Source: Nanobdellota archaeon (GTDB taxonomy: Archaea > Nanobdellota > Nanobdellia > Woesearchaeales > GW2011-AR4). From it: a DNA stretch of 64,000 nt. The notes under the pieces were generated by a model. That model was not told where the DNA came from. It was given only the letters and a program-made list of their open reading frames with translations, and ran no database searches. A program made the position numbers and the translations under genes. The stretch spans positions 7,041-71,040 of the forward strand of contig JADFLA010000001.1 of assembly GCA_022564635.1 (NCBI GenBank), given 5' to 3'. Within the stretch, counting starts at the first letter, position 1. The number at the start of each line of letters is the position of its first letter. Of the stretch, positions 1-58,535 are shown in pieces.

Positions 1-23
1 CTGAGAAAAGATTAAAAGAGCAT

Positions 24-15137: not shown

Positions 15138-15467
15138 TCAAACAGTTACTTTAACTTTACGTTTTCCTGCTTTATTTCTTAGTTCTTCAAGAATTAGCAT
15201 GTCATCTATTTCCATTAATTTCTTAATTTTAGGATTTTCAATATTTAATTTATATAATTTTGATTTACCAATCGTTCTAGTGGGCATTATCATTTTATTT
15301 TTGATTAATTGGTCCCAAATTCTGTACAATGTTGCCCTCCCTATTCCCGCGTTCCTGGCCATGTCGGATATTGAGAAATCTAGTTCACGTTCTGTTAATA
15401 AGTAATCCAATACTTTTATTGATGGAGAGTCTCCAAGCAATTCAATGAATAAAGATTTTTTTGTCAT
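15138..15467 (-). CDS. winged-helix transcription regulator (paralogue of 57767..58099)
   Basis: LGDSPSIKVLDYLL...DFSISDMARNAGIGRATLYRIW...TRTIGKSKLYKLNIENP; ~35% identical and collinear with 57767..58099. Confidence 0.6.
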   Translation of the reverse strand: MTKKSLFIELLGDSPSIKVLDYLLTERELDFSISDMARNAGIGRATLYRIWDQLIKNKMIMPTRTIGKSKLYKLNIENPKIKKLMEIDDMLILEELRNKAGKRKVKVTV

Positions 15468-15602
15468 TTTTTACTATGTCATACTAGTTTATACTATTAT
15501 ATATCACTATATACCACGATATATATAAATCTTCCTATTTTGAGACAATGTTGTATCAAAAAGCAAAACATTTAAATAGGTCAATGACGCTAATTTTTAT
15601 TT

Positions 15603-15872
15603 ATGTTGTCAAAACTGGATATTAAAGCAAGAATAATAAGAAAACTTGTAAGATGGCAGAAATGGGGTGGAGCTCATACTGAAAATATTCTGAAAGGGCT
15701 GCCTTCTCATTTAATAGGAGATAAAAACACTAAGAAAGCTTTAAAGGAACTAGAAAAAGACAAATGGATTATTCCAGCAAAGAAAACAGGAGAAATTCAT
15801 TATTCATTAAATCCAGAAAAAGCTGATGAAATATTGCAATTTTATGAAAAATACTGTAAAACTGCAGATTAA
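15603..15872 (+). CDS. small wHTH-like protein, divergent partner of regulator (paralogue of 57432..57698)
   Basis: IKARIIRKLVRW...HTENILKGL...TKKALKELEKDKWIIPAKKTGEIHYSLNPEK collinear with 57432..57698 product. Confidence 0.45.
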   Translation: MLSKLDIKARIIRKLVRWQKWGGAHTENILKGLPSHLIGDKNTKKALKELEKDKWIIPAKKTGEIHYSLNPEKADEILQFYEKYCKTAD

Positions 15873-54953: not shown

Positions 54954-55688
54954 ATGACTGAAAAAGTAGGCATTTATGTGCGTGTTTCAACTGAGGAGCA
55001 AGCAAAAGAAGGAATAAGTGTAGATGCGCAGATAGATAGGTGTAAGGCTTTTTGTAAAGCAAGGGCTTGGAAAGTATTTAGAATTTATACTGATGCTGGT
55101 TATTCAGCTGGATCAATGGATAGGCCTGCATTGAAGAATTTGTTTGATGATATTACCAATAAAAAAATTAATATTTTGCTGGTTTACAAAATTGACAGAT
55201 TTTCAAGAAAACTAAAGGATTTGATATCTATATTGGAGGACCTACAATCAAAAGGTGTTAACTTCACATCTGTTACTGAGCAGATCGATACAACAACAGC
55301 AATGGGGGAAGCCTTTTTCCAGATAATTGGTGTTTTTGCGCAACTTGAAAGAGGTATGGTAAAAGAAAGAGTTGAAATGGCTTTTGATAAAAAGATTAGT
55401 TCTGGTGAAATTCTTAATAGGGCTCCAATGGGTTATGTTTATAGAAATGGCAAGCTTTTCGTAAATGAGGAAGAGGCAGAGAAAGTTAGAGAAATCTTCA
55501 ATATGTGGGCAACTGGGATCAATTACAAAGAAATAGCTAAAAAATTCAATATTCCGGTTTCAACATTGTATGAAATTGTTAAGAATCCTACTTATATCGG
55601 AAAAGTAAAATATAGGAATAAATTATATGGTGGGGTTCATAAAGGCATTATTGATGAAGAATTATTCCAAAAAGTAAATGGTAAGTAA
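54954..55688 (+). CDS. serine recombinase (resolvase catalytic domain + partial recombinase domain; probably 3'-truncated large serine recombinase)
   Basis: GIYVRVSTEEQ (catalytic Ser), DRFSR, then recombinase-domain start APMGYVYRNGKLFVNEEEAEKVREIFNMW…; lacks zinc-ribbon/coiled-coil C-terminus. Confidence 0.75.
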   Translation: MTEKVGIYVRVSTEEQAKEGISVDAQIDRCKAFCKARAWKVFRIYTDAGYSAGSMDRPALKNLFDDITNKKINILLVYKIDRFSRKLKDLISILEDLQSKGVNFTSVTEQIDTTTAMGEAFFQIIGVFAQLERGMVKERVEMAFDKKISSGEILNRAPMGYVYRNGKLFVNEEEAEKVREIFNMWATGINYKEIAKKFNIPVSTLYEIVKNPTYIGKVKYRNKLYGGVHKGIIDEELFQKVNGK

Positions 55689-56035: not shown

Positions 56036-56959
56036 ATGTCAGAAACTGAAGATCTAAAACGTAGAGTAATGGAAGAGTATGTACAAATTATTAGCCCCGT
56101 TGTTGGGGAAAATACGGCATTAGCTAATAGATTAACTTCCGACTTAGATGGAATTCTTGATAGAGAATTAGGAAAATTACCCGATAATGAAGCTATTAAA
56201 GAACCAGCTGAAGTGTCGCAGTTAGATTATTCAAGATTAGGCCCTGTTACAAATGATGGCAATAGATATACTCTTGCTCAAATTTTGGAAATGCGTATCG
56301 ACATATTTGCTGAAAGACATACTGGGATTGATGGTACAGATAAAAGTATTTTGCATAATTATTTTAATCAAGTAGCGAAAGGTCATATTAAGGGTACCTC
56401 GTGGGATAGGGCAATGTATGGTTCTCGAGCAGATCATGAGAGAATAAAAAATCCAATTAGTAAAACTAAGGAACAAGCATTAGACTTTATTGGAGTTACA
56501 GAAGAAATGTTTGATACAGCTAATGAATTCTTGCAAAAGCATTATGGCATTAGCCTAGGGACAAAGATTGATGAAGTAGAATTAGCTCGAAATAAAGAAC
56601 TTACAGATGCACGAGAACTGTACACGACACAAGGCCCGTGTATGGAAGACGGACAGAGATATACAACTGCTCAAATCTTGGGTATGGACCTAAATTATTT
56701 TTTACGAACACATAGGGATTCTTTGAAACAAGAGGGTGTACAATCATTAATGACCAAATACTTTCACCAAGTAGATAGTCACAGCCAGCTAGAATGGGGA
56801 GACCTAACAAAAGTTATAGATGCAATTCAAATCTCGCCATTTGATAGCGGAAACCTGCCGGGCATAGGTAATACAACAATTGAAAAAGTTAACCAATATT
56901 TCCAAAACAATTACGACATCACATTAGGAACAAAATTTAGGTTGAGTTCACATAATTAA
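56036..56959 (+). CDS. hypothetical protein with two-fold internal repeat, GC-rich, bracketed by 15-bp inverted repeats
   Basis: repeat units NDGNRYTLAQILEMRIDIF…NYFNQV / EDGQRYTTAQILGMDLNYF…KYFHQV; no catalytic motif recognised. Confidence 0.4.
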   Translation: MSETEDLKRRVMEEYVQIISPVVGENTALANRLTSDLDGILDRELGKLPDNEAIKEPAEVSQLDYSRLGPVTNDGNRYTLAQILEMRIDIFAERHTGIDGTDKSILHNYFNQVAKGHIKGTSWDRAMYGSRADHERIKNPISKTKEQALDFIGVTEEMFDTANEFLQKHYGISLGTKIDEVELARNKELTDARELYTTQGPCMEDGQRYTTAQILGMDLNYFLRTHRDSLKQEGVQSLMTKYFHQVDSHSQLEWGDLTKVIDAIQISPFDSGNLPGIGNTTIEKVNQYFQNNYDITLGTKFRLSSHN

Positions 56960-57431: not shown

Positions 57432-57698
57432 TTAATCCATCTTCAAAAATTCATCAATATATTCCATTATTTTCTCTTTCTTATCCAAATTGATAGACAC
57501 CTGTTTTCCATAACCTGTTTTCTTCAAATGTAATATTCCTTCTTTGATTAATTCTTGTGACATATCTTTGGTTCTTCCTCTCACTTCTGGTGAAAAACCT
57601 TTTGATAAATTATCTAACGCTGTATGACTATGTTCAAACTTTCCCTTACGAGTTAATTTATGCAATATCTTTCCTTTAATTTGATTATCAGTCCACAT
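57432..57698 (-). CDS. small wHTH-like protein (paralogue of 15603..15872), divergent partner of regulator
   Basis: IKGKILHKLTRKG…HTALDNLSKG…TKDMSQELIKEGILHLKKTGYGKQVSINLDKKEK collinear with 15603 product. Confidence 0.45.
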   Translation of the reverse strand: MWTDNQIKGKILHKLTRKGKFEHSHTALDNLSKGFSPEVRGRTKDMSQELIKEGILHLKKTGYGKQVSINLDKKEKIMEYIDEFLKMD

Positions 57699-57727
57699 TA
57701 AAAGTCCACCAAAATAGACTTTGAAAG

Positions 57728-57747
57728 GTAAAGTTTATATACTTTAC
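57728..57747. promoter_or_regulatory. divergent promoter/operator: GTAAAGT-ttatat-ACTTTAC dyad with TATA-like centre, 26 nt upstream of 57767 start
   Basis: 7-bp perfect inverted arms flanking tttatata in the 68-bp intergenic gap between the divergent pair. Confidence 0.5.
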
Positions 57748-57766
57748 TAATAACATTGTTAGTAAG

Positions 57767-58099
57767 ATGGAAGAAAGATCTTTATTACTAAACTTAACAG
57801 GAGATATGCCTTTGTTCAAGATAATTGATTTTCTATTAGAAAATAAGGGAAGTGATTTTAGCAAATTAGACATATCAAAAGGTGCAGAAATTTCCAGAGC
57901 TACTTTATTCAACTACTGGAATGAAATTGAAAAACACGGAATTGTTAAAGTAACCAGAAGTTTTGGAAAAACAAAACTTTACATATTAAATGTTAAAAAT
58001 CCAGTTACACAGAAAATAATGGAATTAGAAAAAACACTTATTGCTGAAGCTATGAATAAAGCTTACAATAAAAAGAAAGAAATAATTGTAGAGAACTAA
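57767..58099 (+). CDS. winged-helix transcription regulator (paralogue of 15138..15467)
   Basis: LTGDMPLFKIIDFLL…DFSKLDISKGAEISRATLFNYW…TRSFGKTKLYILNVKNP. Confidence 0.6.
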   Translation: MEERSLLLNLTGDMPLFKIIDFLLENKGSDFSKLDISKGAEISRATLFNYWNEIEKHGIVKVTRSFGKTKLYILNVKNPVTQKIMELEKTLIAEAMNKAYNKKKEIIVEN

Positions 58100-58217: not shown

Positions 58218-58535
58218 TTATTCTGCTATACAAACACCCATCTCATCCGCTATTTTTCCAGATAAACGGCATTTAAAGCCTTCTGGACAGCCAAATCCAG
58301 CTATTCCATTACATTCACATTGCACTTGGCAAACTTGTATACAAAAATCTGCATCAGTACCAGCACATGGACTTCCACATTCATTCCAATAACCATTAGC
58401 TTGCTCACATTGCTGCTTTGTAATGCCCGCAAAACCCACTTCACCAATTTCTTTATCTTCTTCAAGTACTATTGTTTCACAACTAACTAAAAAAACAAGA
58501 ATTACTGTAAATAAAAGTAAAATTATTTTAATCAT
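58218..58535 (-). CDS. small secreted Cys-rich lipoprotein
   Basis: signal peptide with lipobox VSC; 12 Cys (CEQANGYWNECGSPCAG…CIQVCQVQCECNG…GCPEGFKC). Confidence 0.4.
   Translation of the reverse strand: MIKIILLLFTVILVFLVSCETIVLEEDKEIGEVGFAGITKQQCEQANGYWNECGSPCAGTDADFCIQVCQVQCECNGIAGFGCPEGFKCRLSGKIADEMGVCIAE

What the first reader, a model, noticed from the sequence alone, without database searches (positions are those of the whole stretch)
15138..15872. Duplicated divergent two-gene module: wHTH regulator plus ~88-aa partner (15138-15872 and 57432-58099)
The 109/110-aa regulators are clear paralogues (L.D.P..K(V/I)(L/I)D(Y/F)LL…DFS…(G/E)I(G/S)RATL(Y/F)..W…TR..GK(S/T)KLY.LN(I/V).NP). Their divergently transcribed small partners are also paralogous. 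Both copies keep the head-to-head arrangement. The second copy has a GTAAAGT-ttatat-ACTTTAC dyad over the shared promoter. A conserved, duplicated divergent pair of two small DNA-binding-like proteins is reminiscent of a toxin-antitoxin-like or anti-repressor/repressor switch, but matches no named family.
Basis: seen in the sequence. Interest (0 to 1): 0.55.

Follow-up and report, generated by a model that had tools for sequence, protein, structure and literature searches.

The report
Duplicated pair of small DNA-binding regulators
Two ancient copies of a head-to-head gene pair, each encoding two different small winged-helix DNA-binding proteins around a conserved control region, are core genes of Woesearchaeota-type DPANN archaea and most likely form a self-regulating transcription circuit, not a toxin-antitoxin or mobile-element module.

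Summary
R1 (15138-15467, -) and R2 (57767-58099, +) are 41% identical. S1 (15603-15872, +) and S2 (57432-57698, -) are 35% identical in global alignment (z=11.6), though local BLASTP misses this. Both pairs are head-to-head.

The pair is not a curiosity of this genome. In 106 unique full-length pairs from other DPANN contigs, R1-type always sits with S1-type (58/58) and R2-type with S2-type (32/32). Flanking housekeeping genes differ between lineages. R and S are about as conserved as CTP synthase.

Both proteins model as winged helices and match no Pfam or NCBIfam family. R is MarR/ArsR/Sso10a-like with a long C-terminal helix. S is a minimal PadR/AspA-like fold.

It stays with R when S is absent, and it co-varies with residue 45 of R's recognition helix.

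The copy-2 dyad is perfect only in this window (3-5 of 7 pairs elsewhere). It is better read as a shared BRE-TATA-BRE bidirectional promoter.

Best reading: an autoregulated pair of regulators. S's role and the targets are unknown. Toxin-antitoxin and mobile-element readings are not supported.

The parts
15138..15467 (-). R1: 109-aa winged-helix regulator, type 1
   Evidence: ORF. 41% identical to R2. AlphaFold pLDDT 89.5: helices 6-11, 15-25, 33-40, 44-56 (recognition helix), wing 60-74, long C-terminal helix 79-104. Foldseek best matches are MarR-family proteins, Sso10a-2, ArsR-family proteins and the TFE-alpha winged helix, E 2e-4 to 2e-3. 771 homologues were found (E<=1e-3); the 120 best listed are 70-100% identical.
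15603..15872 (+). S1: 89-aa small winged-helix partner, type 1
   Evidence: ORF. AlphaFold pLDDT 91.2: H4-17, H41-52, beta-hairpin 56-69, C-terminal helix 71-84. Foldseek best matches are Pex (PadR-like), ArsR/SqrR/BigR, AspA, TubR, F-93 and Sso10a, all with E>=0.011. No Pfam or NCBIfam family. 498 homologues were found (E<=0.01); the 120 best listed are 73-93% identical.
15542..15557 (.). Type-1 palindromic operator GAGACAAT|GTTGTATC (family consensus GAKACAAT|ATTGTMTC)
   Evidence: The only zero-mismatch match in 64 kb. The core ACAAT|ATTGT matches at 9-10 of 10 positions in 47 of 58 orthologous intergenic regions. R's TATA starts exactly +20 from the centre in 50 of 58. The element is retained upstream of R in loci that lack S. 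It co-varies with R residue 45.
15522..15529 (-). TATA box directed towards R1 (TTTATATA on the - strand), preceded by the conserved BRE-like block CAAAATAGnAAn
   Evidence: Read. Position-specific conservation is shown. The TATA assignment is an inference from the archaeal consensus.
15571..15578 (+). TATA box directed towards S1 (TTTAAATA), 24 nt before the S1 ATG, implying a leaderless or near-leaderless mRNA
   Evidence: Read. A TATATAA-type box on the S side is conserved in the family profile. The TSS is inferred, not measured.
57432..57698 (-). S2: 88-aa small winged-helix partner, type 2
   Evidence: ORF. 35% global identity to S1, z=11.6. 353 homologues were found (E<=0.01); the 120 best listed are 77-100% identical.
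57767..58099 (+). R2: 110-aa winged-helix regulator, type 2
   Evidence: ORF. 41% identical to R1. In the metagenome scan 93 stretches encode a relative; the 80 kept are 42-89% identical.
57728..57747 (.). Shared core promoter: BRE(R) GTAAAG, TATA TTTATATA (57734-57741) and inverted BRE(S) CTTTAC.
   Evidence: TTTATATA is invariant in 33 of 33 type-2 loci. The arms are conserved as G[TC]AAnAT and ACTTTTC but are only 3-5 of 7 complementary outside this window. TATA end to R2 ATG is 22-24 nt in 20 of 33 loci, and S2 start to TATA is 34-36 nt in 23 of 33. Precedent: the BRE-TATA-BRE bidirectional promoters of P. furiosus (PMC6640164).
57700..57727 (.). Conserved S2-proximal block AAAAGTCCACCAAAATAGACTTTGAAAG. 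It holds the inverted repeat AGTC-N10-GACT (57703-57720) and CCACC (57706-57710), which reads GGTGG, Shine-Dalgarno-like, on the S2 strand. It is a candidate type-2 operator overlapping the predicted S2 start site.
   Evidence: Near-invariant non-coding block in 33 loci. AGTC-N10-GACT is present in 22 of 33 loci, and 3 variants carry the better palindrome GTCTAT-N4-ATAGAC. The block is unique in the window. The function is inferred.

Best explanation
The finding is a lineage-specific core regulatory cassette of Woesearchaeota/Nanoarchaeia (DPANN) archaea. It consists of two unrelated small winged-helix DNA-binding proteins, R (~109 aa) and S (~88 aa), transcribed away from each other from a compact, strongly conserved control region.

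The whole cassette, genes plus control region, was duplicated long ago. Both copies (type 1 = 15138-15872, type 2 = 57432-58099) have been inherited vertically since, and partners have never been swapped.

Proposed mechanism. R dimerises through its long C-terminal helix and binds a palindromic operator just upstream of the BRE/TATA of its own promoter. In doing so it controls its own gene and the divergent S gene.

In type 1 the 16-bp palindrome lies between two back-to-back core promoters, about 20 bp from each TATA box in this window. In type 2 the two promoters have merged into a single symmetric BRE-TATA-BRE element. The operator-equivalent block then lies between the TATA box and the S2 start codon, so occupancy would affect S2 and R2 differently.

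S is the co-regulated partner. It is probably a second dimeric DNA binder or a modulator of R.

What is shown: paralogy, conservation of the pair, the predicted folds, the conserved cis elements and their fixed spacing, and co-variation between the operator and R's recognition helix. What is inferred: DNA binding by R, the sign of regulation, transcription start sites, and S's role and targets.
For: The pair is a unit. There are 136 divergent against 3 co-directional R/S pairs. R1-type occurs only with S1-type (58/58) and R2-type only with S2-type (32/32), and further divergent types are also paired. Three of four distant S relatives tested have a divergent R neighbour 52-53 bp away.

The genes are core genes. 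Flanks differ in every lineage: ribosomal proteins, ArgRS, HisRS, FtsZ, aCPSF1, pyrG/secDF. In syntenic genomes R is 70-83% and S 63-77% identical, against PyrG 71-75%, SecF 50-56% and SecD 57-64%.

The folds are confident winged helices, pLDDT 91 for S and 89.5 for R, with DNA-binding structural neighbours. Both proteins are basic, pI 9.1-9.8.

The operator is conserved. The core matches at 9-10 of 10 positions in 47 of 58 type-1 loci, with the TATA box at exactly +20 in 50 of 58. It is unique in the window. It stays with R in R-only loci L024, L075, L077 and L085. In a distant type (L070) it is replaced by a different palindrome at the same position.

Residue 45, the second residue of R's recognition helix, tracks the outer operator bases: A45 with GTCTC, S45 with GTACC/GTATC, T45 with GTTCC. 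This is the strongest association of any R or S column.

The type-2 region has an invariant TTTATATA and spacings that fit one TATA box serving both genes. Bidirectional BRE-TATA-BRE promoters are documented in P. furiosus (PMC6640164).
Against: No binding or expression data exist, so every functional step is inferred from sequence.

The residue-45/operator co-variation is confounded by phylogeny, because the three states may simply mark three clades.

Conservation as high as a central metabolic enzyme is unusual for an ordinary specific regulator. It may point to a chromatin or basal-machinery role instead.

No second operator copy was found in 64 kb, so no regulon is visible.

About 10 of 80 type-1 R loci have no S within 3 kb, and five of those also lack the palindrome.

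S could equally be the palindrome binder. The type-2 operator assignment is weaker: it rests on an imperfect inverted repeat that overlaps a likely ribosome-binding site.
Confidence: 0.6

Rival explanations
1. R and/or S are nucleoid-associated (chromatin) proteins comparable to Sso10a/Sul10a or Lrs14. They would be abundant, small, basic winged-helix dimers that coat or bridge DNA, and the palindrome would only provide feedback on their own synthesis.
For: Sso10a-2 is among the best structural matches of R (E=3.9e-4, 19-23% identity, same wHTH plus C-terminal helix layout), and Sso10a-2 also appears among the matches of S. Both proteins are basic and about 10-13 kDa. Their conservation equals that of PyrG. 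Their promoters are close to the archaeal consensus. No additional operator sites occur in the window.
Against: A precisely positioned operator that co-varies with the recognition helix indicates sequence-specific binding. The structural matches are generic for winged helices, since MarR and ArsR proteins score the same. Strict pairing of two different proteins is not a known feature of archaeal chromatin proteins. No abundance data are available.
Confidence: 0.15
2. R and S form a two-regulator switch of the CI/Cro or repressor/anti-repressor kind. In one version S and R compete at the shared control region; in the other S binds R directly. Either would give two alternative expression states, with two independent switches per genome.
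For: The two DNA-binding-like genes are head-to-head with operator-like elements between or over their promoters. R and S types never cross-pair, which suggests cognate specificity. The type-2 block lies over the predicted S2 start but upstream of BRE(R), so the two genes could be affected in opposite ways.
Against: Only one clear palindrome is present in type 1, not the multiple graded operators typical of CI/Cro switches. A second half-site next to the S TATA box occurs in only 18 of 51 loci. Strict cis-linkage alone explains the absence of crossing.
Confidence: 0.17
3. The pair is a toxin-antitoxin-like, defence or mobile-element module.
For: The genes form small two-gene cassettes present in two copies. 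A serine recombinase gene lies at 54954-55688, about 1.7 kb from copy 2. R1 gives a weak hit to the candidate defence protein PDC-M05A (E=9.5e-6), covering its winged-helix part only.
Against: Both proteins are winged helices with no toxin or enzyme fold. The genes are divergent rather than co-transcribed. No phage hits were found. In 2.9 million viral contigs there is one weak R hit and no S hit. Flanks are housekeeping genes that differ by lineage. Identity of 70-90% across an order and retention of both ancient copies indicate vertical inheritance. None of the type-2 loci inspected in other genomes has a recombinase next to the pair.
Confidence: 0.02
4. The proteins are centromere-binding or segregation adaptors like AspA (pNOB8) or TubR, with the conserved intergenic block serving as a centromere-like site.
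For: AspA and TubR appear among the structural matches of S (E 0.014-0.04). AspA appears for R as well.
Against: No ParA, ParB or TubZ gene is adjacent in any locus inspected. There is a single palindrome rather than an iterated centromere array. The structural matches are no better than those to ordinary regulators.
Confidence: 0.03

Closest known systems
MarR / ArsR-SmtB winged-helix regulators (structures NadR 5aip, ZitR 5yhx, HpaR 7el3, AntR 6uvu, CzrA 1r1u)
   Same: R has the same winged-helix core (alpha1-alpha2-alpha3-wing). A palindromic operator lies next to its own promoter, as is usual for autoregulated dimeric regulators of these families.
   Different: R reaches no family threshold at sequence level. 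At 109 aa it has a single long C-terminal helix instead of the N- plus C-terminal helical dimerisation domain of MarR proteins. No ligand or metal site is evident. It is strictly paired with a second, unrelated winged-helix gene.
Sso10a/Sul10a (Sso10a-2, PDB 4hw0), crenarchaeal chromatin protein
   Same: It has about the same size and layout as R (winged helix followed by a long C-terminal helix), is basic and is archaeal. Foldseek gives E=3.9e-4 with 19-23% identity.
   Different: The lineage differs (Sulfolobales against DPANN), and there is no sequence-level relationship. R has a dedicated, precisely placed operator, whereas Sso10a proteins are regarded as architectural proteins (my own knowledge).
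PadR-like minimal winged helices: Pex (2dql), AspA of pNOB8 (4rs8, 5k5q), LmrR (4zzd)
   Same: S shares the minimal layout of a winged helix plus one C-terminal helix that mediates dimerisation in those proteins. TM-score (query-normalised) is 0.55-0.67.
   Different: Foldseek E-values are 0.011 or higher, identity is 15-19%, and there is no Pfam PadR hit. S has its own invariant motif, K-W-G-x-x-H-T, in the alpha1-alpha2 connection.
Bidirectional BRE-TATA-BRE promoters of Pyrococcus furiosus (PMC6640164)
   Same: The type-2 intergenic region has one invariant, near-palindromic TATA box flanked on both sides by purine-rich BRE-like hexamers. Its spacing is compatible with two start sites about 50 bp apart.
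   Different: In P. furiosus these promoters were described mainly as a source of non-functional antisense RNA. Here the single TATA box would serve two conserved protein-coding genes and has been maintained across the type-2 loci recovered here. No TSS data exist for this case.
Divergent regulator pairs with a shared control region: lambda CI/Cro, and the haloarchaeal gvpD-gvpA PD/PA promoters with a central GvpE-responsive element (my own knowledge, not checked here)
   Same: The genes are back-to-back and their promoters share or flank a central regulatory element. In type 1 the palindrome lies upstream of both BREs, as the activator site does in the gvp case.
   Different: The proteins are unrelated to CI, Cro or GvpE. 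The arrangement is chromosomal, vertically inherited and duplicated. The direction of regulation is unknown.

Membership tests
MarR family (Pfam PF01047/PF12802) | Sequence match above the Pfam gathering score | tested here: not met
   No MarR model appears among the hits. The best hits are generic HTH motifs below cut-off, such as HTH_26 at 20.7 bits against a cut-off of 22.
MarR family (Pfam PF01047/PF12802) | Winged helix embedded between N- and C-terminal helices that form the dimer interface (about 140-150 aa) | tested here: not met
   The R model has one short N-terminal helix and a single 26-residue C-terminal helix, 109 aa in total. MarR structures align only over the winged-helix core, with target-normalised TM-scores of 0.43-0.50.
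ArsR/SmtB family | Sequence match above the curated cut-off | tested here: not met
   NCBIfam ArsR_Rv2640c gives E=0.0082 and 16.5 bits against a cut-off of 155. No HTH_5 or HTH_20 hit was found.
PadR family (for S) | Sequence match to Pfam PadR | tested here: not met
   S1, S2 and 10 homologues give no PadR hit.
PadR family (for S) | Winged helix plus C-terminal dimerisation helix | tested here: inconclusive
   The predicted layout agrees and Pex is the top structural match, but only at E=0.011 with query-normalised TM-score 0.67.
Sso10a/Sul10a chromatin proteins | Winged helix plus C-terminal antiparallel coiled-coil dimer | tested here: inconclusive
   The monomer layout matches 4hw0 (E=3.9e-4). 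The dimer geometry could not be predicted.
Sso10a/Sul10a chromatin proteins | High cellular abundance and architectural DNA binding | not testable with these tools
   No expression or binding data are available.
Type II toxin-antitoxin system | One partner has a toxin fold or family (for example PIN, RelE, MazF, HEPN) | tested here: not met
   Both partners are winged helices. Pfam, NCBIfam and PADLOC give no toxin family hit.
Type II toxin-antitoxin system | Co-transcribed bicistronic operon with a patchy, mobile distribution | tested here: not met
   136 of 139 pairs are divergent. Flanks are housekeeping genes. No phage matches were found and there is essentially no viral-contig match.
CI/Cro-type bistable switch | Two divergently transcribed DNA-binding proteins with operators in the shared control region | tested here: met
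   The genes are head-to-head, with a palindrome or conserved block between or over the promoters.
CI/Cro-type bistable switch | Both proteins bind the same operators with opposite outcomes (mutual repression) | not testable with these tools
   This needs EMSA or footprinting and reporter assays.
Archaeal bidirectional BRE-TATA-BRE promoter | A single TATA box with BRE-like elements on both sides, in opposite orientation | tested here: met
   TTTATATA is invariant in 33 of 33 loci, flanked by G[TC]AAnAT and ACTTTTC (reverse complement GAAAAGT).
Archaeal bidirectional BRE-TATA-BRE promoter | Two transcription start sites about 50 bp apart, centred on the TATA box | not testable with these tools
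   Only the spacing to the start codons could be measured: 22-24 nt to R2 and 34-36 nt to S2. These values are compatible.
AspA/TubR-type partition adaptor | Linked ParA/ParB or TubZ NTPase gene and an iterated centromere | tested here: not met
   No such neighbour occurs in any inspected locus. The palindrome is single.

The most novel reading that the evidence does not exclude
R and S would not be ordinary specific regulators. They would be a lineage-defining pair of master or basal DNA-binding factors of Woesearchaeales, held as tightly as central enzymes and present as two ancient cognate pairs. One version is a pair of bistable switches governing a major life-style decision of these episymbionts, such as attached versus free or the cell cycle. 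Another is a new two-component chromatin or basal-transcription accessory system specific to DPANN.
Probability: 0.2. Interest if true: 0.7.

Novelty: new variant of a known kind. Interest (0 to 1): 0.45.

Why it matters
DPANN archaea have very small genomes and few recognisable transcription factors, and almost nothing is known about how they regulate genes. This work identifies two unannotated protein families, both listed only as 'hypothetical protein' and absent from Pfam. They form one of the most conserved gene pairs in Woesearchaeota-type genomes.

The pair comes with a defined operator, a predicted contact between a recognition-helix residue and specific operator bases, and what appears to be a single TATA box used for two protein-coding genes. 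Together these give a concrete, testable entry point into DPANN transcription control, using recombinant proteins and a 135-bp DNA fragment. They also offer a natural example of functional bidirectional BRE-TATA-BRE promoter use.

If the proteins prove to be global or architectural factors, they would be lineage markers of functional importance.

Tried and rejected
1. Local BLASTP of S1 against S2 gave E=0.24 in the wrong register. A global alignment with a shuffle test replaced it.
2. Pfam, NCBIfam, PADLOC and PHROGs scans returned only sub-threshold HTH-motif hits for R and nothing meaningful for S. The PDC-M05A hit (E=9.5e-6) covers only the winged-helix part and was not taken as evidence of defence.
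3. The PDB sequence-profile search for S returned only sigma-70 region 1.1 (2k6x, E=0.0056). This was rejected as a lead because the predicted S fold is a winged helix with a beta-hairpin, and the match is a short helical similarity.
4. hhalign of R against S gave probability 8.6%, so the two are not treated as paralogues.
5. A search for further copies of the type-1 palindrome or the type-2 block in the window found none beyond chance, so no regulon could be defined.
6. Rfam and tRNA scans of the window were empty, so no ncRNA explains the conserved intergenic blocks.
7. The phage database and IMG/VR scans were negative, apart from one R relative at 33% identity.
9. The repeat finder with its default-style thresholds did not report the short operators. 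They were verified by direct reading and pattern search instead.
10. The serine recombinase near copy 2 was considered as a link to mobility and rejected, because the type-2 pairs inspected in other genomes lack it.
Full report
**1. Observation**

The four ORFs are present as described. R1 is at 15138-15467 (-, 109 aa) and S1 at 15603-15872 (+, 89 aa), separated by 135 bp. S2 is at 57432-57698 (-, 88 aa) and R2 at 57767-58099 (+, 110 aa), separated by 68 bp.

R1 and R2 are clear paralogues: 41% identity, E=1e-29. S1 and S2 are not recovered by local BLASTP (E=0.24, wrong register). They align end to end at 35% identity, with a global score of 88 against 15.3 +/- 6.3 for 2000 shuffles, z=11.6.

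R and S are not detectably related to each other (hhalign probability 8.6%). No third copy exists in the window. The dyad GTAAAGT-TTATAT-ACTTTAC is real, at 57728-57747.

**2. Distribution and linkage**

The window matches an NCBI metagenome-assembled genome named 'Nanoarchaeota archaeon' (locus tags IH934_, 100% identity). Every source name attached to the listed relatives is 'hypothetical protein' or, for R, a generic regulator label.

- R1, S1 and S2 each have hundreds of relatives. The 120 best listed for each are 70-100% identical.
- Nearly all named sources are Woesearchaeota, Nanoarchaeota or Nanoarchaeia MAGs. A few MAGs carry other names, such as 'Methanosarcinales', 'Dojkabacteria' or 'Aminicenantes'.
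- A profile search of 1.84 billion cluster representatives finds 406 S-family clusters, nearly all stand-alone proteins of about 85-95 aa. S is therefore not a fragment of a larger regulator.

I then collected 80 loci around R1-type genes from species-representative genomes, 80 around R2-type genes from metagenomes, and the contigs carrying ten S homologues.

- There are 136 divergent R/S pairs and only 3 co-directional ones.
- Among 106 unique full-length pairs, R1-type is always with S1-type (58/58) and R2-type always with S2-type (32/32). They never cross.
- The remaining 16 pairs include at least one partner more divergent than these two types; in 11 of them both partners are (25-50% identity).
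- Three of four distant S relatives tested (P0510, P0506, P0390) have a divergent R neighbour 52-53 bp away.
- About 10 of 80 type-1 R loci have no S within 3 kb. A few others carry S interrupted by frameshifts.
- One other genome (CAZRPY01) carries both types, as the window does (L007 and L090).

**3. Core genes, not mobile genes**

Flanking genes differ from lineage to lineage and are housekeeping genes:

- ribosomal protein and RNA polymerase subunit genes
- ArgRS and HisRS
- FtsZ and exosome subunits
- aCPSF1 and proteasome
- pyrG and secF/secD in this window

.

In genomes that share the pyrG-R-S-secFD synteny, PyrG is 71-75% identical to the window protein, SecF 50-56% and SecD 57-64%. 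R is 70-83% and S 63-77%. In more distant genomes, other shared proteins drop to 33-53% while R and S stay at 53-78%.

The phage database returned no match. In 2.9 million viral contigs there is one weak R relative and no S relative. A serine recombinase gene at 54954-55688 lies near copy 2 in this window, but no recombinase lies next to the type-2 pairs inspected elsewhere.

**4. The proteins**

Neither protein reaches any Pfam or NCBIfam threshold. R collects sub-threshold helix-turn-helix motif hits, and S essentially nothing.

R model (AlphaFold pLDDT 89.5):

- a short N-terminal helix
- a canonical winged helix, with the recognition helix at 44-56 and the wing at 60-74
- a 26-residue C-terminal helix (79-104)

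Its structural neighbours are MarR-family proteins, Sso10a-2, ArsR-family proteins, the TFE-alpha winged helix and AspA, at E 2e-4 to 2e-3.

S model (pLDDT 91.2) is a minimal winged helix with one C-terminal helix: H4-17, H41-52, hairpin 56-69, H71-84. Its neighbours are Pex (PadR-like), ArsR/SqrR/BigR, AspA, TubR, viral F-93 and Sso10a, all at E>=0.011. S carries its own invariant signature, K..K...K-W-G-x-x-H-T, together with K44, K60 and N70.

All four proteins are basic, pI 9.1-9.8. Invariant basic or polar residues lie at the start of the recognition helix and in the wing of both families (R44, T63, R64 and K68 in R). This is what DNA-binding winged helices show (established knowledge).

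**5. Control region of type 1 (copy 1)**

Aligning 58 distinct type-1 intergenic regions (93-299 bp, median 114) reveals about 37 nearly invariant bases: TGatACAAtATTGTctCAAAATAGnAAnATTTAaATA.

This block is a 16-bp palindrome followed by a BRE-like stretch and the TATA box that faces R. The palindrome consensus is GAKACAAT|ATTGTMTC; in the window it reads GAGACAATGTTGTATC at 15542-15557.

- The 10-bp core matches at 9-10 positions in 47 of 58 loci.
- The TATA box begins exactly 20 nt from the palindrome centre in 50 of 58 loci.
- A second TATA-type box faces S on the other side.

In this window the palindrome centre (15549.5) is 20-21 nt from both TATA boxes: 15522-15529 on the minus strand for R1, and 15571-15578 for S1. 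The S1 ATG follows its TATA box by 24 nt, which implies a leaderless or near-leaderless mRNA. That step is inferred from the usual archaeal TATA-to-start distance.

Four observations tie the palindrome to R:

- It is unique in the 64-kb window.
- It is kept upstream of R in four loci that have lost or relocated S (L024, L075, L077, L085).
- A distant pair type (L070) has a different palindrome, GTCCCTTAAGGGTC, at the same place relative to the same BRE/TATA block.
- Among all variable columns of R and S, R residue 45 has the strongest association with the outer operator bases. Residue 45 is the second residue of the recognition helix. A45 goes mostly with GTCTC, S45 with GTACC/GTATC and T45 with GTTCC. 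The rest of the helix (R44, T46, L47, Y48, R49) and the operator core are nearly invariant.

The residue-45 association is suggestive only, because shared ancestry was not corrected for.

**6. Control region of type 2 (copy 2)**

The 33 distinct type-2 intergenic regions are short (54-105 bp, median 66) and contain one invariant TTTATATA.

Orthologues have 3-5 of 7 complementary positions. Each arm is nevertheless conserved in its own right: G[TC]AAnAT on the S side and ACTTTTC (reverse complement GAAAAGT) on the R side. Both read as purine-rich BRE-like elements upstream of the TATA box on their respective strands.

The TATA end lies 22-24 nt from the R2 ATG in 20 of 33 loci, and the S2 start lies 34-36 nt from the TATA box in 23 of 33. 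This fits one TATA box serving both genes, with a leaderless R2 mRNA and a leader of roughly 11-15 nt on S2 that contains GGTGG (57706-57710, reverse strand).

Such BRE-TATA-BRE promoters, with two start sites 49-50 bp apart, were shown by RNA-seq and in vitro transcription in Pyrococcus furiosus (PMC6640164).

Between the TATA box and S2 lies a near-invariant block, AAAGTCCAccAAAATAgACTTTGAAagG (57700-57727), with these features:

- It carries the inverted repeat AGTC-N10-GACT in 22 of 33 loci.
- Three variants carry the better palindrome GTCTAT-N4-ATAGAC.
- Its centre is about 22 nt from the TATA start, close to the type-1 operator position.

I therefore regard it as the positional equivalent of the type-1 operator, now overlapping the S2 start region. 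This is an inference.

**7. Mechanism proposed**

R most likely acts as a dimeric, sequence-specific winged-helix regulator. It would bind just upstream of its own BRE/TATA and so control itself and the divergent S gene. The cassette, genes plus control region, was duplicated as a block, and both copies were kept.

In archaea, sites upstream of the BRE are typically activating, while sites over the BRE/TATA or the start site are repressing (established knowledge from regulators such as Ptr2, SurR and TrmB-family proteins). On that basis:

- In type 1, R could co-activate or co-limit both promoters.
- In type 2, occupancy would more probably hinder S2 while sparing or stimulating R2.

The sign of regulation, the role of S and the downstream targets are not established. 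S could be a second DNA binder, a modulator of R, or the output of the circuit.

The very high conservation is the main unexplained feature. It keeps a chromatin-like or basal role in play.

**8. Comparison with known systems, and novelty**

The proteins work like MarR/ArsR/PadR-type winged-helix dimers but fail the sequence tests for those families. R also lacks the MarR dimerisation domain. Sso10a-2 is the closest in size and layout to R, but only as a monomer fold.

The gene arrangement resembles CI/Cro-type or gvpD/gvpA-type divergent control regions, with unrelated proteins. The toxin-antitoxin, defence, partition and mobile-element readings each fail at least one defining feature.

I found no paper describing this pair in two full-text searches. 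That is a weak negative.

I class the finding as a new variant of a known kind. It comprises two new winged-helix families locked into a duplicated, ultra-conserved, self-contained cassette with an identifiable operator, and what appears to be functional use of a single bidirectional TATA box.

**9. Verdict**

- Observation: confirmed.
A conserved pair of DNA-binding-like proteins with no named family is correct. The toxin-antitoxin or mobile reading and the conserved operator dyad are not.
- Interest: moderate (0.45). The finding gives a well-defined experimental handle on DPANN gene regulation rather than a new principle.

Noticed in passing
window 54954-55688 (+) and 56036-56959 (+): A serine recombinase gene (Resolvase plus Recombinase domains, E=1.4e-41) lies 1.7 kb from copy 2. 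It is followed by a 307-aa ORF with no family hit, whose two halves look like an internal duplication (…GPVTNDGNRYTLAQILEMRIDIF… / …GPCMEDGQRYTTAQILGMDLNYF…). This may be a small inserted element beside the type-2 pair.
   Followed up: partly
L036 2983-3653; L043 2263-3312; L070 2224-3330: In some genomes a further, much more divergent R (and S) paralogue sits directly next to the type-1 R gene, giving tandem R-R or R<- ->S-R arrangements. The family therefore has more than two ancient types, and they tend to cluster.
   Followed up: partly
protein P0484 (119 aa): One metagenomic ORF fuses the first ~33 residues of an S1-type protein to residues ~21-109 of an R1-type protein. Because the two genes are divergent, this looks like an assembly chimera or an inversion across the control region rather than a real fusion.
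   Followed up: no
type-1 loci, 14 nt to the S side of the palindrome (e.g. L004, L034, L040, L061): An extra ATTGT-type half-site lies directly next to the S-facing TATA box in 18 of 51 loci, against 7% in shuffles, with 13 at exactly -14. This may be a clade-specific third half-site over the BRE of S. The window copy does not have it.
   Followed up: partly
both control regions: window 15527-15541 (- strand reading) and 57710-57717: The octamer CAAAATAG is shared by the type-1 and type-2 conserved blocks. In type 1 it lies immediately before the BRE/TATA of R; in type 2 it lies 16 nt further away. It could be a remnant of common ancestry of the two control regions or a shared recognition element.
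   Followed up: no
record titles (e.g. L014, L018, L026, L075): Several MAGs carrying 66-83% identical R1 genes are deposited as 'uncultured Methanosarcinales archaeon', 'Candidatus Dojkabacteria bacterium' or 'Candidatus Aminicenantes bacterium'. The contigs look like Woesearchaeota-type DPANN sequence, so these are probably mislabelled bins or bin contaminants.
   Followed up: no
L173/L174 1-1801: The aCPSF1 (KH/beta-CASP) gene next to a distant R/S pair contains an intein with a LAGLIDADG endonuclease domain.
   Followed up: no
window 58218-58535 (-): A 105-aa ORF has an N-terminal hydrophobic segment and eight cysteines (…CEQANGYWNECGSPCAGTDADFCIQVCQVQCEC…) and no family hit. It may be a small secreted cysteine-rich protein next to copy 2.
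   Followed up: no
whole window: ARAGORN finds no tRNA gene and Rfam finds no family at gathering threshold in the 64 kb. GC content is 26-36% throughout.
   Followed up: yes
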